From NCBI GenBank assembly GCA_016200085.1, contig JACQFL010000048.1, positions 15,350 through 79,349 of the forward strand: 64,000 nt of DNA. Reading direction: 5' to 3'. The position numbers were made by a program, and so were the translations under genes. The DNA is from Candidatus Rokuibacteriota bacterium. Lineage in GTDB: Bacteria; Methylomirabilota; Methylomirabilia; Rokubacteriales; CSP1-6. The notes below the pieces were generated by a model. It had not been told where the DNA came from. It was given only the letters and a program-made list of their open reading frames with translations, and did not search any database. Shown here one piece after another: positions 3,712 to 54,130 of this stretch (its first letter is position 1; every line of letters starts with the position of its first letter).

Positions 3712-3728
3712 CACGAGGGGAGAGACGG

Positions 3729-4082
3729 ATGCGCGTGCTCATGACGGCAGCTCTGATCGTGCTGCTGAGCGCGTGCTCGACATCGGTCGTCGCCCAGGAG
3801 CGGCGGGTCACCGCGGTTTCGCGCGCTGCGTTCGCGAAGGTCGTCGAGGCGCTCGAGCAGGCCATCACGGACCAGCACCTGGCCCTGGGCTGCCAGGCCG
3901 ATCCCCCGAAGGGCGCGGCGGCGCGCGGCATCGCCATCAAGGACAAGGGCACGACGACCGTCTCGTACATGCCACCGCCGACCGTGTTCGCACCCTACAG
4001 ACATCCGGGCGTGCGCGCCGTCGCCGCCGGGCTCGATCCGATCTTCAACGCGACCGTCGATCAGGCACTGGGCGGGCGCTGA
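3729..4082 (+). CDS. Small lipoprotein (lipobox LSAC), hypothetical
   Basis: MRVLMTAALIVLLSACSTS... in ORF 3708..4082. Confidence 0.55.
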   Translation: MRVLMTAALIVLLSACSTSVVAQERRVTAVSRAAFAKVVEALEQAITDQHLALGCQADPPKGAAARGIAIKDKGTTTVSYMPPPTVFAPYRHPGVRAVAAGLDPIFNATVDQALGGR

Positions 4083-4083
4083 C

Positions 4084-4617
4084 ATGCGGCAACGCCTCGC
4101 GCTCGTGGTTGTCGGAGGCGTGGCCGGCAGTGGGCTGTTCTGGCTGGTCCAGGTGATGACGGGCGGCCCGACCATCACCGCGTTCATGGGCGAACAGGTC
4201 GCTGCTGCCGGCGGATATCCGGCAACCCTGGCGCCCGCCTTCGGGTGGATCATCCATGTCGCCGTCGGTCTCTCGTACGCGTCACTGTTTGGGGTCGTCG
4301 TCGCCCCGCTCCGCTTGCTGCCGCGGGCCGCGCTGGCCGGAACGTCGCTCGTCATGGCAATCGTGTTCGGCTGGCTGACGACCGCCATCGCGCCGTCGGC
4401 CATCAGCGTGACGGTCGGGCTGCTCGGGCACCGGCGGTGGCCCGCCGAGATCTTTCCTTTGAATTGGGACGTCGGCTTGCCGTTCTGGAATCATCAGCTC
4501 TTCTTTCTCGCCAACTGGATCATGCAGGTGCTCGGCGGGATGGTCGTCCGTGCACGGGCGAGGTCGCGGCGGCGGAGCCTGATCACCGGGCGCGAGGGCC
4601 AGGGCGAGCGGGAATAA
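4084..4617 (+). CDS. Hypothetical integral membrane protein (4-5 TM helices)
   Basis: Hydrophobic segments. Starts 2 nt after the preceding stop. No family recognised. Confidence 0.55.
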   Translation: MRQRLALVVVGGVAGSGLFWLVQVMTGGPTITAFMGEQVAAAGGYPATLAPAFGWIIHVAVGLSYASLFGVVVAPLRLLPRAALAGTSLVMAIVFGWLTTAIAPSAISVTVGLLGHRRWPAEIFPLNWDVGLPFWNHQLFFLANWIMQVLGGMVVRARARSRRRSLITGREGQGERE

Positions 4618-4671
4618 ACGCCGGGGCCGGCGGGTTCAGGGGGAAACGTTTGTATCAAGGAGGTGAGTCGA

Positions 4672-4944
4672 ATGATCCGTCAGGTGATCGGCGGCATCGC
4701 GGTCGCGGCCGCGCTCGCCCTCGCGGGGACAGACGCTCTGGCCCAGCAGGCCAACCCGTGCGCGGCCAAGAACCCGTGCGCCACGAAGGCGGCCAATCCG
4801 TGCGCGGCCAAGAACCCGTGTGCGGCCAAGAAGCCGGCTGCTGCGAAGAACCCCTGCGCGGCCAAGAACCCCTGCGCGGCCAAGAACCCGTGTGCGGCCA
4901 AGAATCCTTGCGCCGCCAAGAATCCCTGCGCCGCCAAGAAGTAG
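4672..4944 (+). CDS. Secreted peptide made almost entirely of about 11 tandem NPCAAK-like hexapeptide repeats (about 90 aa)
   Basis: Strong AAGGAGG Shine-Dalgarno sequence. Signal peptide MIRQVIGGIAVAAALALAGTDALAQQ, then ANPCAAKNPCATKAANPCAAKNPCAAKKPAAAKNPCAAK(x5)K. Confidence 0.7.
   Translation: MIRQVIGGIAVAAALALAGTDALAQQANPCAAKNPCATKAANPCAAKNPCAAKKPAAAKNPCAAKNPCAAKNPCAAKNPCAAKNPCAAKK
4749..4938 (+). repeat. 18-bp tandem repeat array encoding NPCAAK units
   Basis: Repeated aa(c/g)cc(c/g)tg(c/t)gc(g/c)gccaag units. Confidence 0.75.
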
Positions 4945-5033
4945 GATCTTTCCGGAGCCGGCCGTGCCCCCCGGGACGCCGGGGGGCCGCCGCCCCGATT
5001 CCCGTCCGTGAGGATGATCTCGGCTCGCCGGGA

Positions 5034-6188
5034 ATGGTTCTGCCGCTCGCGGGTTTGATGCACGTCGTGGTTCTTGCGCGTCGCCTTCTGTTGAAAGTCG
5101 CCACGGTGTTGGTCCTCCTTCCGGCGCTTGCCATCAGTCCCGCATTCGCGCACGACGGTCCCCCCGCTGGCGCCGTCGTACCCAGCGAGCGCATCGATCC
5201 GCGCCAGGTCTATCCCTTCGGCGTCGTCGCCGGCGGGGGCGGACACTTCCACGTCCTGCAGGTCATGCCAGGGGAGCGACGCGTCTTTGCCGGCACCCAT
5301 CTGGGGCTGTTCGTGAGCGAAGACCGAGGGCTCACGTGGCGTCTCGTCGCGCCTCGCTTCAGCGGCGTCGACGTCCACGGCCTCGCACGCGATGCGGCCA
5401 CGGGAGCGTTGTATGCGGCGACCCACGGACAGGGCCTTCTCGTCAGCGAGGACGGTGGCACCCGGTGGCGGGACGGCTCGGCGAGCCTGCCCGGCCGCGA
5501 CCTGCACGCCCTCGCCCTCGATGCCCATGATCGGGGCACGATCTACGTCTGGTCCGTTGGCCATGGTCTCTTCGCTCGGCGAGGTCGCGTGCGGATGTGG
5601 GAACGCCTGGCGGGGCGAGAGGCCCTCACCCAGGTGGAGAGCCTCGCCATCCATCCACAGAATTCGCGGCGGCTCTACGCGGGAACCGCGGCCGGGGTGC
5701 TTGTCAGCGAGGACGGCGGCCGCCGGTGGATGCTACCGCCCGGCGGCCTCGAGCGTCGGACCGCCGGCGTCGCGGTCGTCCCGAGCCGGCCTGACATGGT
5801 CCTCGCCGCGACGTTCGACGGGGTCTTCGCCGGTCACGCAGCCGGCGCGGACTGGAAGCCGCTCGAGGCAGCGCCCTCGTGGTGGGGCCCGATCGTGGGG
5901 TTCGCGTTCGTCGGCGATCGGCCCGACACCGTCTTTGCCGTCTCGCACGAGGGACCGGTCGTCATGCGCGCGGTGTGGGATGGCCCCTGGATACCTCTCG
6001 CGGCGCGACCGCCGGCCACGAGTCGGCGAATCAGCGCCCGCCCTTCGGGGCCGGTCCACGAGCGCGGACCAACCGCAGTGGTGAGCACCCGGCCGTCACG
6101 GCCGATCAAAACCACGGTGGGCGTCGCCCGGACGCCATACGCCCGGGCGACCCGCATGTCGGGATCGAGCACCACGGGAGCGCTGTAG
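5034..6188 (+). CDS. BNR/Asp-box repeat (sialidase-like / Ycf48-like beta-propeller) secreted protein. The 3' end is uncertain.
   Basis: Repeated SxDxGxTW motifs (SEDRGLTW, SEDGGTRW, SEDGGRRW). Signal peptide (...KVATVLVLLPALAISPAFA). A TTG about 57 nt downstream of the ATG is an alternative start. The tail beyond about 6000 overlaps the convergent TlpA-like gene and may not be coding. Confidence 0.6.
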   Translation: MVLPLAGLMHVVVLARRLLLKVATVLVLLPALAISPAFAHDGPPAGAVVPSERIDPRQVYPFGVVAGGGGHFHVLQVMPGERRVFAGTHLGLFVSEDRGLTWRLVAPRFSGVDVHGLARDAATGALYAATHGQGLLVSEDGGTRWRDGSASLPGRDLHALALDAHDRGTIYVWSVGHGLFARRGRVRMWERLAGREALTQVESLAIHPQNSRRLYAGTAAGVLVSEDGGRRWMLPPGGLERRTAGVAVVPSRPDMVLAATFDGVFAGHAAGADWKPLEAAPSWWGPIVGFAFVGDRPDTVFAVSHEGPVVMRAVWDGPWIPLAARPPATSRRISARPSGPVHERGPTAVVSTRPSRPIKTTVGVARTPYARATRMSGSSTTGAL

Positions 6189-6553
6189 CCACGCGCCTTC
6201 ACCTCGCGGGCGACAGTCGTGGCGTCTTCACCGACATCGACGAGCACCGCGGTGAAGCCGTCCGGGGCGAGCTCCTTCGCCATCGCGTCGATCGAGGGCA
6301 ACTCCCTCGCGCAGTGCGGTCACCAGGTGGCCCAGAAATAGAGCATGACGAGATGGCCGCGGAACTGATCCAGCGACACCGTGTGCCCGGTGACGTCGCG
6401 CAGGCTGAAGGCCGGCGCCGTCACGGGCTCGGCCGCGGGCGCCACCCCCAGCGCGTCCCACAGCGCCGAGTCCGTCGTGGCACCCGCCGCGGCGGAGGCG
6501 ACGAACAGGACGCCGAGGACCACACTCGCCCAGGGGGGTCGCCGCGTGATCAC
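5834..6553 (-). CDS. TlpA/thioredoxin-like (redoxin) selenoprotein, periplasmic. In-frame TGA at 6320..6322 read as Sec (U-P-H-C). The 3' end is uncertain.
   Basis: ORFs 6320..6553 and 5834..6301 are in the same frame, separated only by a TGA: ...LVMLYFWATW-U-PHCARELPSIDAMAKELAP...ATPTVVLIGRDGRV. This is the thioredoxin WCxxC motif with the first Cys coded as UGA. Signal peptide MITRRPPWASVVLGVLFVASAAAGA. Confidence 0.65.
6293..6309 (-). other. SECIS-like hairpin downstream of the Sec-UGA of the TlpA-like gene
   Basis: UGA CCG CAC UGC G CGAGGG-AGUUG-CCCUCG. A 6-bp stem with a 5-nt loop, starting 10-11 nt after the UGA. Confidence 0.5.
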
Positions 6554-7134
6554 GCTTGAACCTCCCGCATCGAGTGGGTGGGGCGCGCTCTCACGTCGAT
6601 CGCGAGACGGCTGAGGATCTCGAGCGAGCGATCGTTGAACGGATCCACGCCGGGATTGGCGAGGCGGTGCTCGGCGAGGCGTGTGATCTTTCCCTCCTGG
6701 AGCCGCTCGATCTGGGGAGTGAACGCCTGGAATACCAGATTGACGAACCGCACGAGGCGCGCGTCACCCCGGGTTTCGTCGATGCGAAACCGACGCGCAT
6801 ACCGTTTGAGAGCCGCCCCGCTCTCGTACCGGTCTCCGATCGCCCAGAGGTTCAGGGTGAACAGCGCCTGCGGCCAGCCGTCACGCGCCATGGAGATGGC
6901 GACGAGATGCACGGTGTGATCGGGGAACAGCCTTACCGTGTGGAAATGTCCGGCCTCGTGCGTCGCGCCGTCGTGACGGTGAAAATATGACTGGCAGCCC
7001 GTGTCGCGGTCGAAGACCCCGTAGTCGTCCGGATACAAGGTCCAGGGCGTCACGTCGCGACCGCCGCAGGCGAGCTCCATCACCGTCGTGCCGTCACGCT
7101 CGAGCGCGGTGAGCAGCTGGCGAAGCTCGGTCAT
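6550..7134 (-). CDS. Hypothetical cupin-like protein (HRHDG...EAGHFH His cluster)
   Basis: Internal Met MTELRQLL of ORF 6550..7221. ATGA overlap with the downstream TlpA-like gene. Confidence 0.5.
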   Translation of the reverse strand: MTELRQLLTALERDGTTVMELACGGRDVTPWTLYPDDYGVFDRDTGCQSYFHRHDGATHEAGHFHTVRLFPDHTVHLVAISMARDGWPQALFTLNLWAIGDRYESGAALKRYARRFRIDETRGDARLVRFVNLVFQAFTPQIERLQEGKITRLAEHRLANPGVDPFNDRSLEILSRLAIDVRARPTHSMREVQA

Positions 7135-7150
7135 GGCCCTGGCCACGGGA

Positions 7151-7933
7151 TCAGAGACGGTTGCGCTCGGCACGCTCGAGGCGGAGCCGGTCGGCGCACT
7201 CGAGGAGCGCGTCGTAATCAAGCGCCGACACCAGGCCGAAGACCGCGCGGCCGTCCGTCCACGCCACCGTCCGATAACCCTTCAGGTCTTTCGCGAAGTA
7301 CTCCTGCCCGCGGAAGGTCACAGGTCGGCCGGTCAGGTGCGCGTCGGGGCCGCTGACCGGCACGACGAACACCGACAGGAGCGTCCGGCCCTTCTCGTAG
7401 AAGATGTAGGCCACTTTGCGCTCGTGTGCCTCGGCGAGGCGGCCGCCGATCAACTGGATGCCCGCCGGCGAGTAGTCCGGAACGGCCACGCGAAGGCCGG
7501 CCCGCTGCTGGAACCACTGCTCGAGCTCGCCGCGGTCATTCGAGGCGAGCTCCACGGGCCGCTCGATCTGGGCGTAGGCGATGTGCTTGTCGACGAGCTC
7601 GGCCAGGAGCGGGGCGGAGGGCCGGCTCGCGGGCAAGAGGACCGCCACGAGGAGCGCCGCCACCGCGGCGGCGAGCGGCGCCACGAGCCAGGGGCGCCAC
7701 GCGACGCGGCGCTGCTCGCGGCGCACGAGCGCGGTGATCTTCGCGCGGAACTCCGGCGACGCCGCTTCCCGGGGCTGGCGGCGGAGGACCTCGCGGAACT
7801 GGCGCTCGCGCCCGAGGAGACCGGCGCAGTCCCGGCACCCCGCGAGGTGCGCGTCCGCCGCCGCCATCGCCTCCACCGGCAACTCGCCATCGAGGTAGGG
7901 ATGCACGCTCGCCGCGAATTCTCTGCAGCTCAT
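7151..7933 (-). CDS. Anti-sigma factor: zf-HC2 (HxxxCxxC) N-domain, one TM segment, periplasmic C-domain
   Basis: MSCREFAASVHPYLDGELPVEAMAAADAHLAGCRDCAG... 4-nt overlap with the upstream ECF sigma gene. Confidence 0.8.
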   Translation of the reverse strand: MSCREFAASVHPYLDGELPVEAMAAADAHLAGCRDCAGLLGRERQFREVLRRQPREAASPEFRAKITALVRREQRRVAWRPWLVAPLAAAVAALLVAVLLPASRPSAPLLAELVDKHIAYAQIERPVELASNDRGELEQWFQQRAGLRVAVPDYSPAGIQLIGGRLAEAHERKVAYIFYEKGRTLLSVFVVPVSGPDAHLTGRPVTFRGQEYFAKDLKGYRTVAWTDGRAVFGLVSALDYDALLECADRLRLERAERNRL

Positions 7934-8523
7934 TCCTCGTCCCTCACGTATCCATGCTCGCGCGCCAGCCGCGTGAGGGCCTGCCGCAGCAGGTGCCGGC
8001 CCCGCGACAGGCGGGACATCACGGTGCCCACCGGGCAGCCGACGACGTCGGCGACCTCCCGATAGCTGAGGCCCTCGAGGTCCACGAGCACCACGGCCTC
8101 GCGGAACACCAGGGGCAGGCCTTTGAGCGCCCGATCGACGTCACCATGCAGGACGGTCTGGAAGAACGCTTCCTCCGGGTTGACGAACCCCATCGACGTC
8201 GCGCTGGGCTGGCCGGTCTCCCACACGGCCGCATCGGGCTCCAGGACCTCACGCCCGTCCTTGCGCAGCCGATTCAGGAACACGTTTCTGAGAATCGTGA
8301 GGAGCCAGGCGCGACAGTTGGTCCCCGGGTTGAACCGGTGAAAGTTGCGGAACGCCCGCAGCACCGCCTCCTGGACCACATCCTCGGCCTCCCCCCGGCT
8401 GCGCGTCAGACGAAGCGCCGTCTGGTAGAGCGTCTCGAGATGGACGAGGGCCGTCCGCTCGAACTCGCTGCCCTCCGATGCCGCGGTCCGCCAGGGAATC
8501 GGAAACCCTCCTGTCGTGAGAAC
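7930..8523 (-). CDS. ECF (sigma-70 family, RpoE-like) sigma factor
   Basis: Regions 2 and 4 are recognisable (LVHLETLYQTALRLT..., LPLVFREAVVLVDLEGLSYREVADVVGCPVGTVMSRLSRGRHLLRQ). The GTG at 8523 is a guess. The ORF extends to 8682. Confidence 0.7.
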   Translation of the reverse strand, partial: VLTTGGFPIPWRTAASEGSEFERTALVHLETLYQTALRLTRSRGEAEDVVQEAVLRAFRNFHRFNPGTNCRAWLLTILRNVFLNRLRKDGREVLEPDAAVWETGQPSATSMGFVNPEEAFFQTVLHGDVDRALKGLPLVFREAVVLVDLEGLSYREVADVVGCPVGTVMSRLSRGRHLLRQALTRLAREHGYVRDEE

Positions 8524-8566
8524 ACCACGACCCGCGCGGATATTCCGGCCTCGGGGGTGGCCCCGC

Positions 8567-9655
8567 TCAGGGAGCCGTACCGAGGATCGTCGTCGGGTGA
8601 AACGCCGCCCAGGCGAACCAGAACGCATCGACGTGAGGGATCGCACGCAGCCGGCGTCCCGCCAGCGGCCCCTTGACCCCACGGCCGAGCAGGTTCCAGG
8701 TCGTGCCGGTCTCCCGGTCGCGGAAGCCCCCCTCGTTTGCCTCGAATGTCAGGCTCTTTCCGTCGAGCATTCGACTGTAGACGGCGGTGGCGCCGACCGC
8801 GCGCGACCGCTCGATCCGCGCATCGTCGAGCGCCGAGAGGGCGCCCGGCTGAAAGAAGATCACGAGCGCCTCGCGGTCGATGGCGTCGTGCAGCACCCGC
8901 CGCTCGGCCAGAATCGGCCAGGGGTACGCCTTGGCCGTCTCGCCGATCTTCACGCCGACCACGCGCTCCTTCGGTGGCCGACGCGTATCCGGCCGACCGT
9001 TGAAGAGGAACGGACGAAGCTCCGGCTGATCGTATGACCCGTAGGGATTGGCGCCGTACTGGCGCTGGTGTCCCGTCTCCCGCGACAGGACCTTGCCGTC
9101 CGGGTGGGCCGCCTTCCAGTCCGCGAACGCGATCGTGTTGGCGGGCACCAGCGCGAGCCGCGTCCCCGCACGCTGGCCGACGAGGGCCCGACCTTCCATC
9201 TGCGCCCAGAGCGAGTGGCTCTGACGGTCGTACATGACGAGGTCGCTCTTGTACACCTTGCCCGACGTCCCGAAGTCGAGCGTCACGTCTCCGACCACCC
9301 GGTCGAACGCGATGCCCGAGTTGCGCAGCGGACAGAAGGTCACGACGACAGGCTTGCCCCCGACGGTGTCGTTCACGATCTCGTGCCACATGAGAATCTG
9401 GAGCGGATACGCCCGCGCATCGCCGTTGATCTCCAGCGCGAGCACGGGCTCCTGGGGCACCAGCCACGCGGCTTGACGCGCGGCGATGAACGCCGGTCGA
9501 TCGATCGCCGGGATGCCGTCTGGAGGCGGGCCGCCGGGGATGATCTCGTCGAGCGGGACCAGCGCCTTGCTCTCGTCGGTCCTGAGCCGCTCGGCGGTCG
9601 CCGCCGAAGCGATCAGGACGGTCAGCGCCACCATGATCGGTACGCGTTTCAACAT
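8567..9655 (-). CDS. DUF3179 family secreted protein
   Basis: Internal Met MLKRVPIMVALTVLIASAATA of ORF 8567..10048. Confidence 0.6.
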   Translation of the reverse strand: MLKRVPIMVALTVLIASAATAERLRTDESKALVPLDEIIPGGPPPDGIPAIDRPAFIAARQAAWLVPQEPVLALEINGDARAYPLQILMWHEIVNDTVGGKPVVVTFCPLRNSGIAFDRVVGDVTLDFGTSGKVYKSDLVMYDRQSHSLWAQMEGRALVGQRAGTRLALVPANTIAFADWKAAHPDGKVLSRETGHQRQYGANPYGSYDQPELRPFLFNGRPDTRRPPKERVVGVKIGETAKAYPWPILAERRVLHDAIDREALVIFFQPGALSALDDARIERSRAVGATAVYSRMLDGKSLTFEANEGGFRDRETGTTWNLLGRGVKGPLAGRRLRAIPHVDAFWFAWAAFHPTTILGTAP

Positions 9656-10129
9656 CTGCCGGCTCACGTGGTCCCTCCCTCGGGCGCGTCCGGCCTTACG
9701 GCGCCTGCACGGGCTCGCTCCGGTGCGACGCATCGATGGTCCGGGAGGACGTTCCAGGCGACGCGGCGGGTGACAGCGTGTCCATCGTCGCCTCCTTGCA
9801 GCGCCCTTCTCGGCGCCGTCACTGTAGAACACGCGGCGGGCCACCTCCATTCCCGCTCGGTCGCGAATCGCCATCGTTTCAAGCTCGGCAGGGGGCGGAT
9901 CGTGCGACTCGGAGAGTCGCCGTAGCGGAAGTCGCTGACGACGATGGGGTTTGTGCCCCGAAACGCCATCGGAGGAGCGGCTGGAGAGAAGACCCGGGAC
10001 GTTCGCGCGGAGGGGTCCGGAGAGCGGAAAGATCGGGTGACGCTGCACGATGTCGAGGTTAGCGGCCGGTCATCGGCCCCGGGGCGCCCGGCGGTCGTGG
10101 ACAGATCGTTTCACGCGTCGTGGCGCTGA

Positions 10130-22170: not shown

Positions 22171-23252
22171 GCAGCGACGTCCAGCTCGACCGCGTGACGA
22201 AGCGCTTCGGCGACGTCACCGCGGTCAGCGCCGTGTCGCTCGAGGTCCAGCCGGGCGAGGTGCTCGCCCTGCTGGGCCCGAGCGGCTGCGGCAAGACGAC
22301 GACGCTGCGCATGATCGCCGGCTTCGAGACGCCCAACGAGGGCGCCGTCCGCATCCGGGGCCACGTCGTCAACGACGTGGCGACGTATCGCCGTAACCTC
22401 GGCATGGTCTTCCAGCACTACGCGCTGTTCCCTCACATGTCCGTCTTCGACAACGTGGCCTTCGGCCTGCGCATGCGCCGCCTGCCGCGCGACCAGACGC
22501 GCGAGCGCGTGCGGGAAGCGATGGCGCTCGTGCGGCTGGCCGGGCTGGAGACACGCCGGCCGTCCGAGCTGTCGGGTGGCCAGCAGCAGCGTGTGGCGCT
22601 GGCCCGCGCCATCGTCACGCGGCCGGCCGTGCTCCTGCTCGACGAGCCGCTCGGCGCGCTGGACCGCAAGCTCCGGGAGCAGATGCAGATCGAGCTCCGC
22701 GCGCTGCAACGCACGCTCGCCATCACCACCATTTTCGTCACCCACGACCAGGAAGAGGCGCTCACCCTCGCCGACCGCATCGCGGTGATGGAAGCGGGCG
22801 AGATCGTGCAGATCGGCACCCCCACCGAGATCTACGAGCGCCCGCGCTCGCGGTTCGTCTCGGACTTCATCGGCGTGTCGAACTTCCTGCCGGGCAAGGT
22901 GGTCGAGCGCGACGGCGACGCCGTGACGGTGCAGGTGGCGGGTCTGCGCCTGCGCGCCGCGGGCGGCGATGGGGTGCAGCCCGGTGACCCCGTCGAGGTT
23001 GCCGTGCGGCCGGAGAAGGTCCGCCTCGGCACGGCGCCGTCGAGCGATGCGAACTGCGTGGCGGGGCGTGTCGAGAACGTCGTCTACCTGGGCGCGGTCA
23101 CCTACTACTACGTGCGGGTGACGGAGGACGTCAGGCTGGTGGCGATGGAGCAGAACCAGACGCCGCGCCCGGCGCACGCGGTGGGCGAGACGGTCCACGC
23201 GGCATGGGAGGCGGCGAGCGCGCTACCGCTCCGGGTCGCGGCTCAGCGGTAG
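22167..23252 (+). CDS. ABC transporter ATP-binding protein (PotA/MalK-like, with C-terminal TOBE-like domain)
   Basis: Walker A GPSGCGKTT, LSGGQQQRVALARA, Walker B LLLDEP. GTG start overlaps the preceding stop. Confidence 0.85.
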   Translation: MSSDVQLDRVTKRFGDVTAVSAVSLEVQPGEVLALLGPSGCGKTTTLRMIAGFETPNEGAVRIRGHVVNDVATYRRNLGMVFQHYALFPHMSVFDNVAFGLRMRRLPRDQTRERVREAMALVRLAGLETRRPSELSGGQQQRVALARAIVTRPAVLLLDEPLGALDRKLREQMQIELRALQRTLAITTIFVTHDQEEALTLADRIAVMEAGEIVQIGTPTEIYERPRSRFVSDFIGVSNFLPGKVVERDGDAVTVQVAGLRLRAAGGDGVQPGDPVEVAVRPEKVRLGTAPSSDANCVAGRVENVVYLGAVTYYYVRVTEDVRLVAMEQNQTPRPAHAVGETVHAAWEAASALPLRVAAQR

Positions 23253-24454
23253 GCGCAGGGCGGCACGGCCGTCTTGAATGGCGATTGCGGCAGGTGCTGG
23301 CCGTGCGGGAACAGGCGGAGCTGTCGCGCCGGCGGCGCGGGCGCGAGGCGTCTTCCGCGCAGGGCCAGGAAGTGAGCCGCCCGCGCGGTGTCGACGCCGA
23401 GCCGCCGGAGATCGCGGGCGCCTCGCAGCACCACGCGGCGCCGTTGCGCGATCACGGCGGCTGCCGCCTTCGGCCCGAGCCCGGGCACGCGCAGGAGCAG
23501 CTCGTGCGGCGCGTGCAGGACGTCGAGCGGAAAGTGCTCGGGGTGGGCGAGGGCCCACGCCGTCTTCGGATCGTCGTCGAGCGGCAGGTTGCCGTCCTCG
23601 CCGAACACGAGCTCGTCGAAGCCGAAGCCGTACTGGCGTAACAGGTGCTCCGCCTGGTAGAGCCTGAGCTTGCGCACGGCCGGGGTTCCCGGTGCACCTT
23701 CCATCGGCGTGCCGGCCACCGGTTGGAAGGCGCTGAAGTGCGCGTGGTGGAGCATGCGCTCGCGCTCCAGGCGCGCCACCAGCCCGAGCGTCTCGCGGTC
23801 CCGCTCGCCCGCCGCGCCCACCACGAACTGCGTCGTGGTTCCCGCCGTCGGCATCCCATCGCGCCGCCGCTGCTCGCGGCTGTCACGCGCCAGCCGCCCC
23901 GCCAGCATCAGCTTGGGCAGCAGGTCGCCGCCGAAATCCTTCTCGCGCGCGAGCGCCCGCACGTACCCATCTCCCGGCGCCTCGAGATTGGCCGACACCC
24001 GCGTGGCCAGCCGCGAGGCCTCCTCGACCTGCGCCGTCTCCGCCCCCGGCAACACCTTGACGTGGACGTAGCCGCGAAATCCTTCGCGCTGCCGGAGGAT
24101 CTGCAGGCTCGCCAGCATCCGATCCATCATCCGCACCGCCCGCCCCGGAACTCCCGAGGTGAGGAAGAGCCCTTGAGCGAGTCCCTTGCGATGCGCCTCC
24201 ATGAACGTGGTGGCGACCTCCTCCGGCGCCAGCCCCGTCCGCTTCACCTTTCCCCCACAAAACGTCGGACAGTACCCGCACGACAGCGAGCACGCGTTCG
24301 TCTGCATCACCCGCATGATCCGGGTCGTCCCCCGTCCCGGTACCCGCACCGGCCGGATCCCCACCGCCCCCGATTGGGGGTCGACGCGCTCAGGAGCCCC
24401 ATCCTCCCGATCATGCGATTCCGCCAAGATCTCCCACCGAGTCCGCCGATCCAT
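23243..24454 (-). CDS. Putative DNA modification/repair radical SAM protein (the family usually linked to family-4-like UDGs), with C-terminal helix-hairpin-helix
   Basis: CSLSCGYCPTF radical-SAM cluster motif and LLRVPGLGPKAAAAV HhH. Internal Met MDRRTRW of ORF 23243..25111. Confidence 0.65.
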   Translation of the reverse strand: MDRRTRWEILAESHDREDGAPERVDPQSGAVGIRPVRVPGRGTTRIMRVMQTNACSLSCGYCPTFCGGKVKRTGLAPEEVATTFMEAHRKGLAQGLFLTSGVPGRAVRMMDRMLASLQILRQREGFRGYVHVKVLPGAETAQVEEASRLATRVSANLEAPGDGYVRALAREKDFGGDLLPKLMLAGRLARDSREQRRRDGMPTAGTTTQFVVGAAGERDRETLGLVARLERERMLHHAHFSAFQPVAGTPMEGAPGTPAVRKLRLYQAEHLLRQYGFGFDELVFGEDGNLPLDDDPKTAWALAHPEHFPLDVLHAPHELLLRVPGLGPKAAAAVIAQRRRVVLRGARDLRRLGVDTARAAHFLALRGRRLAPAPPARQLRLFPHGQHLPQSPFKTAVPPCAYR

Positions 24455-24642
24455 ATACAGGTGAGGAATGATACTCAACACAAGACGAGTAGTCAAGTAA
24501 CACATCTCGATCCCGCGCCCGCGCGCAGCAACCGGGCGCGCACAGCAAAAGCCCGCTTGGCCGATGCGAGCAAAGCGAAGCGAGCGAGGCGTCAGGTCAA
24601 CGGAGGGAGCCCAGAGACCGGCGGCGGTAGACCGCCCACGAA

Positions 24643-24797
24643 GACGGCGGGGCCGAGCGGGTCGGGGGTGGCTCCCGGGCGCCGTTGGGTACGCTCGAAC
24701 ATCGGCGCGCGCCGAGCGCGTTTCGCGGACGCCCCGCTCGGTGGCCCCAGTGTCAGTCGGCGCCCGGGAGCCACCCCCGACCCGCTCGGCCCCGCCG
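24643..24797. repeat. About 155-bp intergenic element with 38-40 bp G-rich terminal inverted repeats (copy 1 of a 3-copy family)
   Basis: Left arm gacggcggggccgagcgggtcgggggtggctcccgggcgcc; right arm ggcgcccgggagccacccccgacccgctcggccccgccg. Loop begins TTGGGTACGC and ends CAGTGTCAGTC. Confidence 0.6.
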
Positions 24798-24827
24798 GAC
24801 CCCGCGAGGTGTATACTCCGGAGAGTC

Positions 24828-24915
24828 GTCGTGGGGGGAGGAATCCTGAGAACCGGGTGCGGCCCGGGACCCCTCGAACCTGCTCTGGATAATCCCAGCG
24901 AAGGGAACACGCCGA
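24828..24915 (+). promoter_or_regulatory. TPP (THI-box) riboswitch upstream of thiS
   Basis: ggggaggaatcCTGAGAaccgggtgcggcccgggACCCctcGAACCTGctCTGGATAATcCCAGCGaAGGGAA. The CGGCCGCGGAG immediately 5' of the thiS ATG can pair with an upstream GGCCGCG element, which would sequester the Shine-Dalgarno sequence. Confidence 0.85.
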
Positions 24916-24980
24916 CGGATCGCGGCCGCGCCCGAAGTCTCGGGACAGCGGCCGTTGCTGTTTCCGGCCGCGGAGCGGGC

Positions 24981-27995: not shown

Positions 27996-28010
27996 TCCTC
28001 GGCGCGCGGC

Positions 28011-28172
28011 GACGGGGCCACGGGGGGTGGGGGGCAGGGGCCGACGAGACCACGTCGTACGCGCCCGCTACCCGATCGCGGCTGGGCTCCATCCCGGCGC
28101 CCGGGGTCCGTCGCCGGTCGGCGGGGTACGGGTCCTGCCGGCCCCTGTCTCCCACCCCCCGCGGCCCCGTCG
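28011..28172. repeat. About 160-bp intergenic element with imperfect 33-bp G-rich terminal inverted repeats (copy 2 of the family)
   Basis: gacggggccacggggggtggggggcaggggccgac ... cggcccctgtctcccaccccccgcggccccgtcg. Internal GTCGTACGCGCC. Confidence 0.5.
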
Positions 28173-29144: not shown

Positions 29145-30590
29145 ATGGCTGATCTCGCTGTCGCCCGCCCCGAGCGCTTCTTCGCCGACCGGTTCAACGT
29201 GACGCCGTCCCTGATGGAGCGGCTGCTCGGTTCCTCGCTCCGCGGGCGCGTGGACGACGCCGACGTCTACCTCGAGTACCGTATCAACGAAGAGCTGGTA
29301 CTCGAGGAAGGAACAGTCAAAAAGGCCTCTCGGCACGTCAGCCAGGGCGCCGGGGTCCGGGCCCAGGCCGGCACCCGCACGGGCTACGCCCACACCGACG
29401 ACATCTCGATCGGGAACCTCGAGGAGGCCGCACGCCAGGCGCGTTCCATCGCCGATCAGTCGAGCGCCTCGGGGATCCTCGCCGTCCCCGGCCGGCGCCC
29501 GCACGACCTCTACGCGCTGGCCGAGCCGCCCATCGTCACGGAGCTCACCCGCAAGGTCGATCTGCTCCGGCGGGTGGACCGGGCCGCGCGCGAGGCCGAT
29601 CCGCGGGTCAAGCAGGTCATCGCCAGTATTGGCAGCGAGGACGTCGTGATGCTGATCGCCACCGCGGGCGGCTGGACGGTCGGGGACGTGCGCCCGCTGG
29701 CCCGGCTCAACGTCACGGTGATCGCCGAAGAGAACGGCAAGCGCGAGATCGGGTCGTACGGCGGCGGCGGCCGCGTGGCGTTCGACTTCTTCCTCGAGCA
29801 GGATCGCTGGAGGCGCTTCGCCACCGAGGCCGCGCGCCAGGCCACCCTCAAGCTCGGCGCGCTCGACGCGCCGGCCGGCACCATGACGGTGGTGCTCGGC
29901 CCGGGCTGGCCGGGGATCCTGCTCCACGAGGCGATCGGGCACGGCCTCGAGGGTGACTTCAACCGCAAGGGCGTGTCCGCCTTCGCCGGGCGCATGGGCC
30001 AGAAGGTCGCCTCCGAGCTGGTGACGGTGATCGACGACGGGACGATCCCGAACCGCCGCGGCTCGCTCAACGTCGACGACGAGGGCACGCCCACCGGGCG
30101 CACCGTGCTCATCGAGAAGGGCGTGCTCGTGGGCTACATGCAGGACAAGCTCAACGCCCGCCTCATGGGCGCGGCCCCGACGGGCAACGGCCGCCGCGAG
30201 TCGTACGCCTATCCGGCGATGCCGCGCATGACGAACACGTTCATGCTCGCGGGGGAGGATGACCCCGAGGACATCATCCGCTCGGTCAAGCACGGGCTCT
30301 ACGCGGTGACGTTCGGCGGCGGCCAGGTCGACATCACCAGCGGCAAGTTCGTGTTCTCGGCCACCGAGGCCTACCTGATCGACGACGGACGCATCGGCGC
30401 CCCGCTGAAAGGGGCCACGCTGATCGGCAACGGGCCCGACGCCCTGACGCGGGTGAGCCGCGTGGGGCGCGACCTCGCGCTCGACGAGGGCGTGGGCACG
30501 TGCGGCAAGGACGGGCAATCCGTGCCCGTGGGCGTGGGACTGCCGACGATCCGCATCGACGGCATGACGGTCGGCGGGAGCCAGGTGTGA
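29145..30590 (+). CDS. tldD: Metalloprotease TldD
   Basis: 481 aa, canonical TldD with HEAIGHGLE-type motif. Confidence 0.9.
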   Translation: MADLAVARPERFFADRFNVTPSLMERLLGSSLRGRVDDADVYLEYRINEELVLEEGTVKKASRHVSQGAGVRAQAGTRTGYAHTDDISIGNLEEAARQARSIADQSSASGILAVPGRRPHDLYALAEPPIVTELTRKVDLLRRVDRAAREADPRVKQVIASIGSEDVVMLIATAGGWTVGDVRPLARLNVTVIAEENGKREIGSYGGGGRVAFDFFLEQDRWRRFATEAARQATLKLGALDAPAGTMTVVLGPGWPGILLHEAIGHGLEGDFNRKGVSAFAGRMGQKVASELVTVIDDGTIPNRRGSLNVDDEGTPTGRTVLIEKGVLVGYMQDKLNARLMGAAPTGNGRRESYAYPAMPRMTNTFMLAGEDDPEDIIRSVKHGLYAVTFGGGQVDITSGKFVFSATEAYLIDDGRIGAPLKGATLIGNGPDALTRVSRVGRDLALDEGVGTCGKDGQSVPVGVGLPTIRIDGMTVGGSQV

Positions 30591-31945
30591 GCGGCGTCGA
30601 TCCCGGGCTGCTCGTCTCCGTCCTGCGGCGCGCGACGGCGCGCGGGGCCACGGCGGCCGACGGCTTCCTGGTGGAGGATCGCCACTTCAGCGCCATGGTG
30701 CGGCTGGGCGAGGTCGACACGGTGACCCACTCGCAGGACCAGCGGCTCTCGCTGCGCGTCTTCTACGGGCGCGCCACCGCGGCCGCCTCGAGCTCGGATC
30801 TGTCCCCCGCCTCGCTCGAGCGCGTGGTGGACGAGGCCACCGCGCTGGCCCGCATCACCGCCGAGGACGAGCACGCGGGCCTGCCGGACCCGGCCGAGGT
30901 GATCGAGCGCGTGCCGGACCTCGACCTCGAGGACCGCGAGGCGCCGGCGCTGTCGCCCGAGGAGAAGATCGACATCGCGCGGCGGGCCGAGGCGGCCGCG
31001 CTGGCCAGCGACCCGCGCATCAGCAACTCCGAGGGCGCGGAGTCCTTCGACCGGCGCTCGCACTACGTGTACGCCGCCGCGCACGGCTCGGGTCGCGTCT
31101 TCGCGGGCGACTACGCCACCACCTCCTTCGGCATCACCTGCTCGCCGGTGGCGGCGCAGGACGGCGAGATGCAGCGGGATTCCTGGTACTCGATGGCCCG
31201 CAAGCGCGCCGGGCTGGACGACCCGGCGTCGGTGGGGCGCACGGCGGCCGCGCGCGCGCTGCGCCGCCTGGGCGCGCGCAAGGTCAAGACCACCGAGGTG
31301 CCGGTGATCTTCGATCCCGAGAACGCGGCGAGCCTGCTCCGGTCGGTCGCGGCGGCGGCCAGCGGGCCGAGCCTGTACCGCCGCGCCTCGTTCCTCGTCG
31401 AGCGCCTCGGCCAGCGCATCGCCGCCTCCGGCGTCACCATCGTGGACGACGGCCTGCGCCCGGGGGCGCTCGGCTCACGGCCGTTCGACGGCGAGGGGCT
31501 CCCGACGCGCCGCACCGCGCTCGTCGAGGACGGCGTGCTGGTGACGTACCTGCTCGACACCTACAGCGCCCGCAAGCTCGGCCTGGCCTCGACCCACCAC
31601 GGCACCCGCGACGGCGCCGGGGTGACGGTGGGGACCACCAACCTCATGCTGCTGCCGGGCACGGCCTCGCCCGACGACCTCATCGCGTCGGTCGACAACG
31701 GCTTCTACGTCACCGAGCTGATCGGCTTCGGGGTCAACGGCGTCACCGGCGACTACTCTCGCGGCGCCGTCGGGCTGTGGATCGAGAACGGCAAGCTGGC
31801 GTACCCGGTCGAGGAGGTCACGGTGGCCGGCAACCTGCTGGAGATGCTCCTGGCCATCGACGGGGTCGCCAGCGACCTCGTGCTGCGCGACCGGACCGCG
31901 GCGCCAACGCTGAAGATCGCCAAGATGGTCGTCGCGGGAGCGTGA
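30587..31945 (+). CDS. pmbA: Metalloprotease PmbA/TldE
   Basis: GTG start overlapping the tldD stop (GTGA). Typical PmbA sequence. Confidence 0.85.
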   Translation: MSGVDPGLLVSVLRRATARGATAADGFLVEDRHFSAMVRLGEVDTVTHSQDQRLSLRVFYGRATAAASSSDLSPASLERVVDEATALARITAEDEHAGLPDPAEVIERVPDLDLEDREAPALSPEEKIDIARRAEAAALASDPRISNSEGAESFDRRSHYVYAAAHGSGRVFAGDYATTSFGITCSPVAAQDGEMQRDSWYSMARKRAGLDDPASVGRTAAARALRRLGARKVKTTEVPVIFDPENAASLLRSVAAAASGPSLYRRASFLVERLGQRIAASGVTIVDDGLRPGALGSRPFDGEGLPTRRTALVEDGVLVTYLLDTYSARKLGLASTHHGTRDGAGVTVGTTNLMLLPGTASPDDLIASVDNGFYVTELIGFGVNGVTGDYSRGAVGLWIENGKLAYPVEEVTVAGNLLEMLLAIDGVASDLVLRDRTAAPTLKIAKMVVAGA

Positions 31946-47572: not shown

Positions 47573-49135
47573 TCAGGCGTCCAGCGAGTCCATGAAGCCG
47601 GCGATCTGCTCGACGCGCACGCCCGAGACCGCGATCTCCGGCGCGTAGATCACCTCGTCGGCCGCCCACACGATCGTGCCCTTGGCCTCTCTCGTCACGC
47701 CCATGACGTTCTCGAGCACGGTGGCGATGTTGTCGTTGATACGCAGCGCGTTGGCGCGCAGGGGCGCCGCCAGGCGGCCGTCGCGGATGACCCAGGAGTC
47801 GCCGACCACGGTGCAGGTGAAGTCGCCGGCGCGCAGGCCGTTGACCGGGTACGTGTACCAGATCCGGCCGACGTAGAGGCCGTCGCGCACCGTGCGGATC
47901 AGCTCCTCGAGGCTCACGGCCTCCGCGCCCTGCACCACCACGTTGGAGGCCGCCACGCCGGGGCCGCGGTCGAACTGGCGGCCGCCGCCGGCGCCGAAGC
48001 GGAAGCCGTTGCGCGGCACGAGCGCCCGCGCGGCCTCGTCGCCCGTCGCGCCGAGCTTGGCGGCCAGCGCCGGGTCGCGCAGCAGGCGCTGGGTCTGGTA
48101 CCAGCTGGACAGGCAGCCGACGAGCACGCCGTCCCTGATCAGGTCGGTGCGTCCCGTCGGCAGGCCCTCGCACGTGATGCCCTTGGAGCCGGTGTAGCCG
48201 GGGACGTTGCCCGCGTCCCAGACGCTCAGGCGCGGCGAGGCCACCTGCCGGCCGAGGCGGCCGAGGAACGGCGTGTTCGAGGCGTAGAAGGTGCCGGCGG
48301 AGCAGGCGGGCACGATGACGTTGTTGAGCAGGTCGCTGACCGGCTGCTTGCCGAAGATGACCGTGTACTCGCCCGAGGGCACGCGCTCGCCGCCGACGGC
48401 GGCGATGGCGTTGCCCGCCGCCTCGATGCCGGCCTCGTCGGAGAACTCCTCGAGGCGCGTGCCCGTCGACCAGCCCGAGCCCTTGGCGTCGCGCGCTTCC
48501 ACCATCGCCGTCACGAACGCCGTGATCAGGGTGGACTCGTCCGTCTGCGCCTCGGGCATGCGCGTCGAGACGATGGCGATGCGCTCCTGGAGGATCGTGA
48601 CGTCGCCGCCGAGGATGAGCCCCAGCGCGCGCAGCGCCTCGTCGCTGCCCGCCAGCTCCGCCAGCCTGGACGAGGCGAGGAAGGTGCGGAGCGCGCCGTT
48701 GACGATCGTCCAGCCCGCGCCCACGAGGGCCTCGTCGTCGATGGCCAGGAGCCTCGGGTCGGCGTAGTCCGTGAGGGTGCGCCGCTCGCGCGCCGGCTCG
48801 GGCAGGGAGACGAAGTCCGGATCGCGCACCGCCGCGGCGCGCGCCTTGTCGAGCGCGCGGCGGGCGCCCGCCTCGCCGAGGTCGGTGGGCTCGCTGCCGA
48901 AGCCGACCACCGGGCCCTGGGGCCCGTCGAAGACCACGTGGAGGCCGAGGCCCGAGGACTCGTCGGACTTCGGCTCCTCGACCCCGTTCGAGGGGATGTG
49001 CGAGGTGTAGCAGAGCCGGGTGAGCAGGCTCGCGTTCGAGGCGACGAAGACCTCGACCTCGCGCACGCCGGGCGCCCGGCGCGCGCCCTCGAAGGCGATG
49101 CGCGCGGCGCGCTCGAGCTCGGTCAGGGTCCGCAC
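47573..49135 (-). CDS. TldD/PmbA-family metallopeptidase homolog (divergent, 520 aa)
   Basis: TldD/PmbA fold, lacking a signal peptide. GAGGTGA Shine-Dalgarno sequence overlapping the upstream rhodanese stop. GTG start. Confidence 0.75.
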   Translation of the reverse strand: MRTLTELERAARIAFEGARRAPGVREVEVFVASNASLLTRLCYTSHIPSNGVEEPKSDESSGLGLHVVFDGPQGPVVGFGSEPTDLGEAGARRALDKARAAAVRDPDFVSLPEPARERRTLTDYADPRLLAIDDEALVGAGWTIVNGALRTFLASSRLAELAGSDEALRALGLILGGDVTILQERIAIVSTRMPEAQTDESTLITAFVTAMVEARDAKGSGWSTGTRLEEFSDEAGIEAAGNAIAAVGGERVPSGEYTVIFGKQPVSDLLNNVIVPACSAGTFYASNTPFLGRLGRQVASPRLSVWDAGNVPGYTGSKGITCEGLPTGRTDLIRDGVLVGCLSSWYQTQRLLRDPALAAKLGATGDEAARALVPRNGFRFGAGGGRQFDRGPGVAASNVVVQGAEAVSLEELIRTVRDGLYVGRIWYTYPVNGLRAGDFTCTVVGDSWVIRDGRLAAPLRANALRINDNIATVLENVMGVTREAKGTIVWAADEVIYAPEIAVSGVRVEQIAGFMDSLDA

Positions 49136-49139
49136 GGCG

Positions 49140-49559: not shown

Positions 49560-49563
49560 GGGG

Positions 49564-53841: not shown

Positions 53842-53987
53842 GGCAGGGGTGGGGCTGGAGAGGGGTCCCGGGAGCCCTTGGGTACGCGTGGAGAACGGCG
53901 CGCCTCGATGACCGCGACAGCGTGTCCCCGGCGGAGAGTAGGCACAGTCAGTGGGCTCCCGGACCCCTCTCCAGCCCCACCCCTGCC
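53842..53987. repeat. About 145-bp intergenic element with 35-36 bp G-rich terminal inverted repeats (copy 3 of the family)
   Basis: ggcaggggtggggctggagaggggtcccgggagccc ... gggctcccggacccctctccagccccacccctgcc. Loop begins TTGGGTACGCG and ends CACAGTCAGT. Confidence 0.6.
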
Positions 53988-54130
53988 TTCGCCGACGCCC
54001 GCGCCATCACGCGCCGCGTGGCTGTAAAGTGGCTTGACAGGCGTCGCCTCCTGTCACTACTGTAGCGCCGGGTACAGTCGGGTCCCACTTTCCATCAGCC
54101 CCTGTCATCGAGGGCAGGAGGTCGCGCGCG

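What the first reader, a model, noticed from the sequence alone, without database searches (positions are those of the whole stretch)
24643..24797. Intergenic element of about 155 bp with perfect 38-40 bp G-rich terminal inverted repeats just upstream of the TPP riboswitch (family copy 1)
Arms gacggcggggccgagcgggtcgggggtggctcccgggcgcc and its exact reverse complement enclose about 75 nt. The enclosed segment starts TTGGGTACGC and ends CAGTGTCAGTC. The same architecture and core recur at 28011 and 53842. The element lies between the radical-SAM gene start and the thi leader. It could be a MITE-like mobile repeat, a long structured sRNA, or a protein-binding palindrome.
Basis: seen in the sequence. 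Interest (0 to 1): 0.65.

Follow-up and report, generated by a model that had tools for sequence, protein, structure and literature searches.

The report
Self-complementary foldback repeat in Rokubacteria
A 153-bp stretch of non-coding DNA just upstream of the thiamine-operon promoter in an uncultured soil or groundwater bacterium (Rokubacteria) has two perfectly complementary 40-base arms around a 73-base core, and belongs to a small family of probably mobile hairpin repeats whose arms change in sequence yet stay complementary.

Summary
Arms 24645-24684 and 24758-24797 are 40/40 complementary around a 73-nt loop. Two elements of the same architecture lie at 28010-28172 and 53842-53987.

The window comes from a Candidatus Rokubacteria MAG. 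Copy 3 is a true homologue of copy 1 (loop alignment z=5.8). Copy 2 shares only the architecture and a 9/10-matching outer terminus.

A relative whose neighbouring gene is 87% identical carries a decayed orthologue of copy 1 at the same junction. Copies 2 and 3 are absent from the orthologous spacers of relatives. Nothing similar turned up in Rfam, plasmids, or pattern scans of viral, genome and metagenome collections.

Copy 1 lies between two divergent promoters, 14 nt upstream of the thi -10 box, so it is not part of the TPP leader.

The arms differ between copies at roughly chance level for G-rich sequence, yet are 86-100% complementary within each copy with no strand-biased G·U excess.

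My best reading is a lineage-restricted, REPIN/MITE-like foldback DNA repeat whose arms are homogenised by hairpin-templated (template-switch) correction. It fails the defining tests for a classical MITE, a REPIN, an attC site and an intrinsic terminator. Function and mobiliser are unknown, and interest is moderate.

The parts
24645..24684 (+). Copy 1, left arm (40 nt, G-rich: 23 G, 13 C)
   Evidence: 40/40 complementary to 24758-24797. Base composition.
24685..24757 (+). Copy 1, asymmetric 73-nt core (loop). Conserved blocks: TTGGGTACGC 24685-24694, CGGCGCGC 24703-24710, GTCAGT 24752-24757.
   Evidence: The blocks are shared with copy 3 at the same offsets. They are partly shared with the L102 orthologue.
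24758..24797 (+). Copy 1, right arm (exact reverse complement of the left arm). It covers the -35 region of the thi promoter.
   Evidence: It ends 14 nt before the TATACT of the conserved block GGTGTATACTCC.
53842..53877 (+). Copy 3, left arm (36 nt, one bulged C)
   Evidence: 97% complementary to 53953-53987. The inner 15 nt are homologous to copy 1.
53878..53952 (+). Copy 3, 75-nt core, homologous to the copy 1 core and in the same orientation
   Evidence: Loop alignment z=5.8. Core model R2 scores 103.5 bits.
53953..53987 (+). Copy 3, right arm
   Evidence: It ends 46 nt upstream of the conserved TTGACA (54034-54039) of the RRM-gene promoter.
28010..28172 (.). Copy 2: same architecture (42-nt arms, 36/42 paired, 79-nt largely self-paired loop) and the same outer terminus CGACGGGGCC. 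Loop homology is not demonstrable.
   Evidence: The six arm mismatches are all transitions, 3 G·T and 3 A·C by direct reading. The element is absent from the M20-to-binding-protein spacer of L090.
24808..24819 (+). Context: conserved thi promoter block GGTGTATACTCC (-10 TATACT at 24812-24817), directly 5' of the TPP aptamer at 24824-24924
   Evidence: Conserved in the window, L049, L051, L052 and L102. TPP riboswitch.
24468..24496 (-). Context: promoter of the divergent radical-SAM/HhH gene (TTGACT-17-TATCAT). The gene runs 23243-24454 on the minus strand.
   Evidence: The gene length of 403 aa is taken from homologues.

Best explanation
Copy 1 belongs to a small family of intergenic foldback DNA repeats that is restricted to one Rokubacteria lineage.

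Each element has an asymmetric core of about 70-75 nt with conserved end motifs (T-W-S-GGTA-S-GC at the 5' side, CAGT..GT at the 3' side). The core is flanked by long arms that are G-rich on the 5' side and C-rich on the 3' side.

I read it as a non-autonomous, REPIN/MITE-like element. It has been copied between intergenic sites at least once, probably as a single-stranded DNA hairpin handled by an enzyme encoded elsewhere in the genome. After insertion it persists for long periods.

The arms are not conserved as sequence. They are kept complementary at the DNA level by hairpin-templated correction, meaning replication template switching between the two arms. A change in one arm is thereby either reverted or copied onto the other.

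At its present site the element is not part of the thi leader RNA. It sits between two divergent promoters and has replaced the -35 region of the thi promoter.

Shown: the anatomy, the homology of copies 1 and 3, the orthologue in L102/L103, absence from relatives at the other two sites, arm covariation, and position relative to the promoters.

Inferred: mobility through a hairpin intermediate, template switching as the homogenising process, and the absence of an RNA role.
For: 1. Copies 1 and 3 lie 29 kb apart in unrelated intergenic contexts and have homologous cores and inner arms. The element has therefore been duplicated to a new site.

2. Presence and absence vary between relatives. In relatives with conserved synteny, the SDR-to-RRM spacer is 131-136 nt with no hairpin, against 345 nt in the window. 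In the closest relative, L090, the spacer between the M20 peptidase and the binding-protein gene is 45 nt, against 228 nt in the window. About 66 kb of related Rokubacteria DNA contains no long-loop hairpin.

3. L102/L103 (neighbouring gene 87% identical) carry a decayed orthologue of copy 1 at the same radical-SAM/thiS junction. About 25 of 33 arm positions pair, and the loop is 68 nt. That loop is similar to copy 1 (z=4.2) and to copy 3 (z=3.9), while the adjacent spacer is unalignable (z=1.4).

4. Arm behaviour. Complementarity within copies is 100%, 97% and 86%. Left arms aligned between copies score little or no better than shuffled sequence (p=0.02-0.18). In the confidently aligned inner 15 pairs of copy 1, copy 3 and L102, 5 pairs changed on both sides and 91% of cells are paired. 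Slid controls give 22-53%.

5. A DNA-level process fits better than RNA-level selection. There is no G·U or mismatch in about 75 stem pairs of copies 1 and 3, apart from one bulge. The six mismatches of copy 2 are 3 G·T and 3 A·C, so no strand is favoured (read).

6. Copy 1 lies 148 nt upstream of the minus-strand -35 box and 14 nt upstream of the plus-strand -10 box. It is therefore outside both flanking transcripts.

7. Template switching is documented to create and perfect inverted repeats and to produce multi-base compensatory changes (PMC8794818, PMC5941160). [quoted passage not shown]

8. No Rfam family matches beyond sub-threshold hits to eukaryotic miRNA-precursor hairpin models.
Against: - Only two demonstrably homologous copies, plus one architectural look-alike, are visible. 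The genome-wide copy number could not be measured.
- There is no target-site duplication at any copy.
- No transposase, integrase, RAYT or reverse transcriptase was found among about 48 window ORFs.
- The pattern scans of genome, metagenome and viral collections returned only chance hits. The patterns required exact matches to motifs defined from two copies, so these scans were insensitive.
- Copies 1 and 3 are far too diverged to be recent transpositions from one master, yet their arms are perfect. Perfection must therefore be maintained in place, and that could equally reflect strong selection for a function I have not identified.
- Retention of copy 1's orthologue at the thi promoter, and the conserved loop-end motifs, could point to a cis-regulatory role rather than selfish persistence.
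- Promoter positions are inferred from conservation and consensus, not from transcript data.
Confidence: 0.45

Rival explanations
1. Functional RNA hairpin. When transcribed, the element forms a 36-42 bp stem. The stem acts as a U-tract-less terminator or transcriptional insulator, or as an RNase III processing site that shapes the 3' ends of upstream mRNAs and shields downstream promoters from read-through.
For: - Copies 2 and 3 lie 14 nt and 56 nt downstream of the stop codons of plus-strand genes.
- Relatives carry ordinary hairpins at the position of copy 2: a 25-33 bp G-rich stem with a 5-nt loop in L049, a 13-bp stem in L091 and an 8-bp stem in L050.
- The folds are very stable (z = -6 to -11).
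- The loop-end motifs are conserved beyond the neutral background.
Against: - Copy 1 and its L102 orthologue lie between divergent promoters, with no upstream gene to terminate on either strand.
- No T-tract follows any copy.
- The stems are purely Watson-Crick, with no strand-biased G·U.
- The elements are absent from the same gene junctions in relatives, so they are not a conserved requirement.
- A 73-nt loop is atypical for terminators.
Confidence: 0.2
2. A palindrome-targeting insertion. The roughly 70-nt core, with perhaps 10-15 bp of its own inverted ends, is the mobile unit, and it inserts into the apex of pre-existing long GC-rich hairpins. The variable outer arms are then host hairpins. 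This resembles IS1397/ISKpn1 inserting into REP/BIME loops (from my own knowledge).
For: - Between copies 1 and 3, the core and the inner ~15 nt of each arm are conserved, while the outer ~25 nt are not.
- A long G-rich hairpin with only a small loop, and a similar CGGCGGG terminus, sits in L049 at the position equivalent to copy 2. It scores 38.8 bits with the full-length model.
Against: - Even the inner-arm differences are all compensated, so arm co-evolution is needed in any case.
- The window has no 'empty' hairpin with a stem of at least 20 bp and a small loop.
- The SDR-to-RRM spacer of relatives has no hairpin that could have served as the target for copy 3.
- Copy 1's left arm, including its outer part, aligns with L102 left-flank sequence, part of which lies outside the L102 repeat, whereas the outer part of copy 1's right arm falls in alignment gaps against L102. 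This fits arm growth by inverted copying of the left side (or a deletion in L102), not a pre-formed host hairpin.
Confidence: 0.15
3. A protein-binding or structural DNA site. The conserved loop-end motifs, or G-quadruplexes formed by the G-rich arms, recruit a regulator or nucleoid protein that affects the adjacent promoters.
For: - Copy 1 and its orthologue abut the thi -10 region.
- Copy 3 ends 46 nt upstream of the RRM-gene -35 box and has the same orientation relative to the downstream gene.
- The arms of copies 2 and 3 fit the canonical G4 motif, and copy 1's arm does so with one 8-nt loop. Four of the 14 G4 motifs in the window lie in the arms of copies 2 and 3.
Against: - Arm sequences are not conserved between copies.
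- The distance to the promoter differs between copy 1 and copy 3.
- More distant relatives have the same thi promoter block without any element.
- G-richness alone produces G4 motifs.
- Cruciform extrusion across a 73-bp spacer is kinetically unfavourable (general knowledge).
Confidence: 0.1

Closest known systems
REPINs (REP doublets forming hairpins, mobilised by RAYT transposases; Bertels & Rainey 2011, PMC3116915)
   Same: Both are extragenic. The whole unit folds into a long hairpin in ssDNA or RNA. Both have two inverted ends separated by a less conserved spacer of tens of nucleotides. Compensatory changes across the hairpin are common, there is no target-site duplication, and copies are strain- or lineage-specific.
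   Different: REPIN ends contain an invariant 16-25-mer shared by hundreds of copies. Here the arms are the least conserved part and the loop ends are the most conserved. The 73-nt centre is not an extension of the stem. No RAYT is seen, and only 2-3 copies are seen.
Bacterial MITEs and ERIC- or Correia-type palindromic repeats
   Same: Both are small (about 150 bp), non-coding, intergenic, have terminal inverted repeats, fold as hairpins, and vary in presence between relatives.
   Different: MITE terminal repeats are conserved across copies and match a parent IS, and most produce target-site duplications. Neither holds here.
Quasipalindrome correction and template-switch-maintained inverted repeats (PMC8794818, PMC5941160)
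   Same: This mechanism explains perfect Watson-Crick arms, multi-base compensated differences, the absence of G·U intermediates, and possible outward growth of arms.
   Different: It is a mutational mechanism, not an element family. It does not explain the conserved loop motifs or the second homologous copy at an unlinked site.
Integron attC sites
   Same: In both, folded structure is conserved and stem sequence is variable. The length range overlaps (attC sites are 57-141 bp, from my own knowledge).
   Different: There are no R''/R' core sites (RYYYAAC...GTTRRRY) at the ends, no extrahelical-base pattern, no IntI gene and no cassette array in the window.
Intrinsic (including U-tract-less 'I-shaped') terminators of high-GC bacteria
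   Same: Both are GC-rich perfect stems with a G-rich 5' arm. Copies 2 and 3 are positioned after genes.
   Different: The stem is 3-5 times longer and the loop is 73-79 nt instead of 3-8 nt. There is no T-tract, and copy 1 is not downstream of any gene.

Membership tests
Classical MITE | Terminal inverted repeats conserved in sequence among copies | tested here: not met
   Left arms aligned between copies score at or near the level of shuffled sequence (p=0.02-0.18). Only the inner ~15 nt and the outer ~9 nt are shared.
Classical MITE | Direct target-site duplication flanking the element | tested here: not met
   The flanks are GAAGA|...|GACCC for copy 1, GCGCGG|...|GGCTCG for copy 2 and GCGCGC|...|TTCGCC for copy 3. 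There are no direct repeats.
Classical MITE | Many dispersed copies and a related autonomous IS | not testable with these tools
REPIN | Two inverted copies of a highly conserved REP 16-25-mer | tested here: not met
   No invariant arm oligomer is shared by the three elements.
REPIN | The whole unit forms a hairpin, with compensatory changes | tested here: met
   Within-copy complementarity is 86-100%.
REPIN | A cognate RAYT (Y1 transposase) in the genome | not testable with these tools
Intrinsic terminator | Short-loop GC hairpin followed by a U-tract, downstream of a gene | tested here: not met
   The loop is 73-79 nt, no T-run follows, and copy 1 lies between divergent promoters.
Integron attC | R''/R' core sites RYYYAAC and GTTRRRY at the outer ends, with an adjacent integrase or cassette array | tested here: not met
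   The outer ends read CGGCGGGG...CCCCGCCG. No integrase was found among the scanned ORFs.
Any Rfam RNA family | Score at or above the family's gathering threshold | tested here: not met
   Only the TPP riboswitch passes in the window. E-value scans of all three elements gave only sub-threshold hits to eukaryotic miRNA-precursor models.
thi (TPP) leader | Lies within the riboswitch-containing transcript | tested here: not met
   The element ends 14 nt upstream of the conserved -10 block, which directly precedes the aptamer. This is an inference from promoter conservation, not from a mapped transcription start.

The most novel reading that the evidence does not exclude
The family could represent an undescribed kind of structure-specified mobile or recombination site. 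An enzyme would recognise a long stem of arbitrary sequence together with conserved stem-loop junction motifs (TTGGGTACGC ... ACAGTCAGT). This would be analogous in logic to attC sites or IS200/IS605 ends. Each copy's arms would be regenerated from one another during transposition or replication, which would explain perfect arms on highly diverged copies.
Probability: 0.12. Interest if true: 0.7.

Novelty: new variant of a known kind. Interest (0 to 1): 0.4.

Why it matters
Rokubacteria are abundant, uncultured soil and groundwater bacteria with large genomes, and my one literature search found no description of their repeat content.

This family shows clearly that a long perfect inverted repeat can be an evolving structure and not a conserved sequence. 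The two paralogous copies, which are about as diverged as the orthologous pair, each keep 36-40 perfectly paired arm positions. If the arms are maintained by template switching, the elements are a natural record of that mutational process in bacteria. If instead an enzyme recognises the stem-loop junction, they point to an unknown mobilisation system.

There are two practical consequences. The element should not be annotated as part of the TPP riboswitch leader. It has also displaced the -35 region of the thi promoter, which may affect regulation of the operon.

Tried and rejected
- **Collection scans.** I ran exact-pattern scans for the shared loop motifs against GTDB genomes (TTGGGTACGCN{45,75}GTCAGTNGGC), JGI metagenomes (TTGGGTACGCN8CGGCGCGC) and IMG/VR. 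They returned 47, 30 and 6 hits. All were chance matches without flanking inverted repeats. Only the loop gives polarity.\n- **Full-length covariance model R1.** It mostly rediscovered generic hairpins.

Full report
**1. The observation**

The sequence at 24645-24797 consists of a 40-nt arm (CGGCGGGGCCGAGCGGGTCGGGGGTGGCTCCCGGGCGCCG), a 73-nt loop and the exact reverse complement of the arm. It is the longest inverted repeat in the window. The arm sequence occurs nowhere else in the window, and no shuffled window matched it. As a single strand the element folds at -139.9 kcal/mol, z = -10.9.

Two further elements have the same layout:
- 28010-28172, with 42-nt arms, 86% complementary, and a 79-nt loop.
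- 53842-53987, with 36-nt arms, one bulge, and a 75-nt loop.

In 30 Markov-simulated windows, only one inverted repeat of at least 28 bp with a 40-120 nt spacer appeared, against three observed. The same sequences occur in two other independent assemblies. They are therefore real and not assembly artefacts.

**2. Organism and context**

The window has 71.7% GC. Its M20 amidohydrolase is identical to proteins of Candidatus Rokubacteria MAGs.

- Copy 1 lies in the 517-nt spacer between a minus-strand radical-SAM/helix-hairpin-helix gene (23243-24454, 403 aa by comparison with homologues) and the TPP riboswitch and thiS-thiG-thiE operon.
- Copy 2 lies 14 nt after the stop codon of the M20 peptidase gene and 51 nt before a periplasmic binding-protein gene.
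- Copy 3 lies 56 nt after the stop codon of an SDR gene and upstream of an RRM (cold-inducible-type) RNA-binding protein gene.

None of about 48 ORFs scanned against Pfam is a transposase, integrase or reverse transcriptase.

**3. Copy 1 is not part of the thi leader**

The block GGTGTATACTCC (24808-24819) directly precedes the aptamer. It is conserved in the window, L049, L051, L052 and L102, whereas the sequence upstream of it is not. I take it to be the thi -10 region.

Copy 1 ends 14 nt upstream of TATACT, so its right arm occupies the -35 region. On the other strand, a 10/12 consensus promoter (TTGACT-17-TATCAT, 24496-24468) serves the radical-SAM gene. Copy 1 lies 148 nt upstream of that -35 box.

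Copy 1 therefore sits between two divergent promoters. This rests on conservation and consensus, not on mapped transcription starts.

**4. Which copies are related**

The loops of copies 1 and 3 are significantly similar (z=5.8, p<0.0005). They share TTGGGTACGC at the 5' end, CGGCGCGC exactly 8 nt later, and GTCAGT at the 3' end, together with the inner arm TCCCGGGnGCCn.

The loop of copy 2 is not significantly similar to either (p=0.25-0.32). A covariance model of the core does not find it. Copy 2 shares the architecture, the terminus CGACGGGGCC (9/10 with copy 1) and a GTACGC. I treat it as a probable distant relative or a look-alike.

Because the arms are palindromic, both strands read 'G-rich arm first'. 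Only the loop gives polarity. Copies 1 and 3 have the same polarity relative to the downstream gene, but with n=2 this is not significant.

**5. Comparative evidence**

*Copy 2 site.*
- Relatives with 83-85% identical M20 protein have other genes at this junction and no long-loop hairpin.
- Several carry ordinary hairpins just after the M20 gene. One is a 25-33 bp G-rich stem with a 5-nt loop in L049.
- The closest relative, L090 (88%), has the same adjacency of M20 and the binding-protein gene, with a 45-nt spacer and no element.

*Copy 3 site.* Relatives keep the gene order MoeA-RDD-SDR-RRM-PolB and a conserved RRM promoter, but have a 131-136 nt spacer without any hairpin.

*Copy 1 site.*
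- L102 and L103 are two independent assemblies in which the radical-SAM protein is 87% identical. Both keep the divergent junction between the radical-SAM gene and thiS.
- At the same place they carry an imperfect inverted repeat (about 25 of 33 positions paired with three gaps, and a 12-bp perfect inner stem) around a 68-nt loop, TACGGTAGGCG...GACAGTGCGT.
- That loop is similar to copy 1 (z=4.2) and to copy 3 (z=3.9). The spacer next to it is not alignable (z=1.4).

The family therefore predates the split of these two lineages. One copy has been retained at the thi promoter, while copies 2 and 3 are absent from the orthologous spacers of every relative sampled (the L102/L103 clade could not be sampled at the copy 3 site).

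The core model finds only copy 1, copy 3, L102 and L103 in about 256 kb of Rokubacteria loci.

**6. The key property: arms covary**

Within copies the arms are 100%, 97% and 86% complementary. Between copies the left arms align no better, or barely better, than shuffled sequence (p=0.02-0.18).

In the confidently aligned inner 15 pairs of copy 1, copy 3 and L102:
- 5 pairs changed on both sides.
- 91% of cells are paired.
- Slid controls give 22-53%.

Copies 1 and 3 have no G·T and no mismatch in about 75 pairs, apart from one bulged C. The six mismatches of copy 2 are all transitions, three G·T and three A·C on the plus strand. Neither strand is favoured, as it would be under selection on an RNA.

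Copies 1 and 3 are about as diverged from each other as copy 1 is from its orthologue in L102. Their perfect arms therefore cannot be the result of recent transposition from one master. The arms must be kept complementary in place.

Copy 1's left arm, including its outer part, aligns with L102 left-flank sequence, part of which lies outside the L102 repeat. By contrast, much of the outer part of copy 1's right arm falls in alignment gaps against L102. This is what inverted copying of the left side (arm growth) would produce. A deletion in L102 is an equally possible explanation.

**7. Mechanism proposed**

The pattern to be explained has four parts: Watson-Crick-perfect arms, multi-base compensated differences, no strand bias, and possible outward growth.

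This is the signature of replication template switching between the arms of a quasi-palindrome. That process is documented to create and perfect inverted repeats and to yield compensatory changes in one event (PMC8794818, PMC5941160). REPINs, which are thought to move as ssDNA hairpins, also show frequent compensatory changes (PMC3116915).

I therefore read the family as a REPIN/MITE-like foldback repeat. It has been copied between intergenic sites, its arms evolve in concert, and the enzyme that moves it, if any, is encoded outside the window.

The conserved loop-end motifs are not explained by template switching. They suggest either a recognition site for that enzyme or some cis function.

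**8. Rivals**

- *RNA terminator, insulator or RNase III site.* This fits the positions of copies 2 and 3 and the hairpins found in relatives. It does not fit copy 1's position, the missing T-tract, the 73-nt loop or the pure Watson-Crick stems.
- *A core that inserts into pre-existing hairpins.* This fits the conserved core with variable outer arms and the 'loop-less' hairpin in L049. It does not fit the absence of empty long hairpins in the window or the absence of a target hairpin at the copy 3 site in relatives.
- *A protein-binding or G-quadruplex site.* This fits the proximity to promoters and the G4 motifs in the arms. It does not fit the variable arm sequences and the variable distances to promoters.

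**9. Comparison with known families and novelty**

The element works most like a REPIN or MITE, but it fails their defining tests. There is no conserved REP or terminal-repeat sequence, no target-site duplication, and no visible transposase.

It is not an attC site, because it lacks the core sites and no integrase is present. It is not an intrinsic terminator. It matches no Rfam family.

I classify it as a new variant of a known kind, namely the bacterial intergenic foldback repeat. Interest is moderate. The arm covariation is striking and the taxon is poorly explored, but the family is small in the data available, and neither function nor mobility is demonstrated.

**10. Limits**

The rest of the genome could not be searched. 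Promoter assignments are inferential. With only three or four sequences, the covariation statistics are indicative only.

Noticed in passing
L102:2283-2380 (minus strand) and L103:1247-1344: A decayed orthologue of copy 1 lies at the same radical-SAM/thiS junction in a related Rokubacteria lineage. It has an imperfect 29-33 nt inverted repeat and a 68-nt loop, and its right arm abuts the thi -10 block.
   Followed up: yes
L049:11339-11393: A near-perfect (24/25) 25-bp G-rich hairpin, about 33 bp with a bulge, with a 5-nt loop lies 9 nt after the M20 peptidase stop codon, between convergent genes. It occupies the same relative position as copy 2 and has a similar CGGCGGG terminus. L091 and L050 have shorter hairpins at the same place.
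   Followed up: partly
window 23243-24454 (minus strand): The radical-SAM/helix-hairpin-helix gene is annotated as 354 aa in the NCBI MAG, but homologues are about 403-405 aa. The ATG at 24454 lies only 13 nt after the -10 box TATCAT, which suggests a very short leader.
   Followed up: partly
window 24808-24924: The TPP riboswitch (56.3 bits) is preceded by a strongly conserved GGTGTATACTCC block with no conserved -35 box in any relative. The window's thi operon (thiS-thiG-thiE) lacks the DAO/thiO-like gene that follows thiE in L049.
   Followed up: partly
window 28010-28051, 28131-28172, 53842-53877, 53953-53987: The arms of copies 2 and 3 fit the canonical G-quadruplex motif (G3+N1-7, four tracts), and copy 1's arm does so with one 8-nt loop. 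Four of the 14 such motifs in the whole window lie in these arms.
   Followed up: partly
window 3712-10129: This block has lower third-position GC (0.80-0.83, against 0.90-0.98 elsewhere). It encodes an ECF sigma factor, a zf-HC2 anti-sigma protein, DUF3179, DUF6969 and a redoxin, and may be horizontally acquired.
   Followed up: no
window 54030-54130 and L092:9960-10000: The RRM (cold-inducible-type) RNA-binding protein gene has a promoter, CTTGACAnGCGTC...CTGTCAnTAC, that is conserved across relatives. It is followed by a partly conserved 5' UTR of about 70 nt, which could be a regulatory leader.
   Followed up: no
L104:4638-7037: A radical SAM protein in a related MAG contains an intein (Intein_splicing plus LAGLIDADG_3).
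   Followed up: no
window 29145-31945 (+) and 47573-51126 (-): There are two separate tandem pairs of PmbA/TldD-family metallopeptidase genes. A 41-nt, 76% complementary inverted repeat (48830-48870 and 49069-49109) lies at the 5' end of one of them.
   Followed up: no
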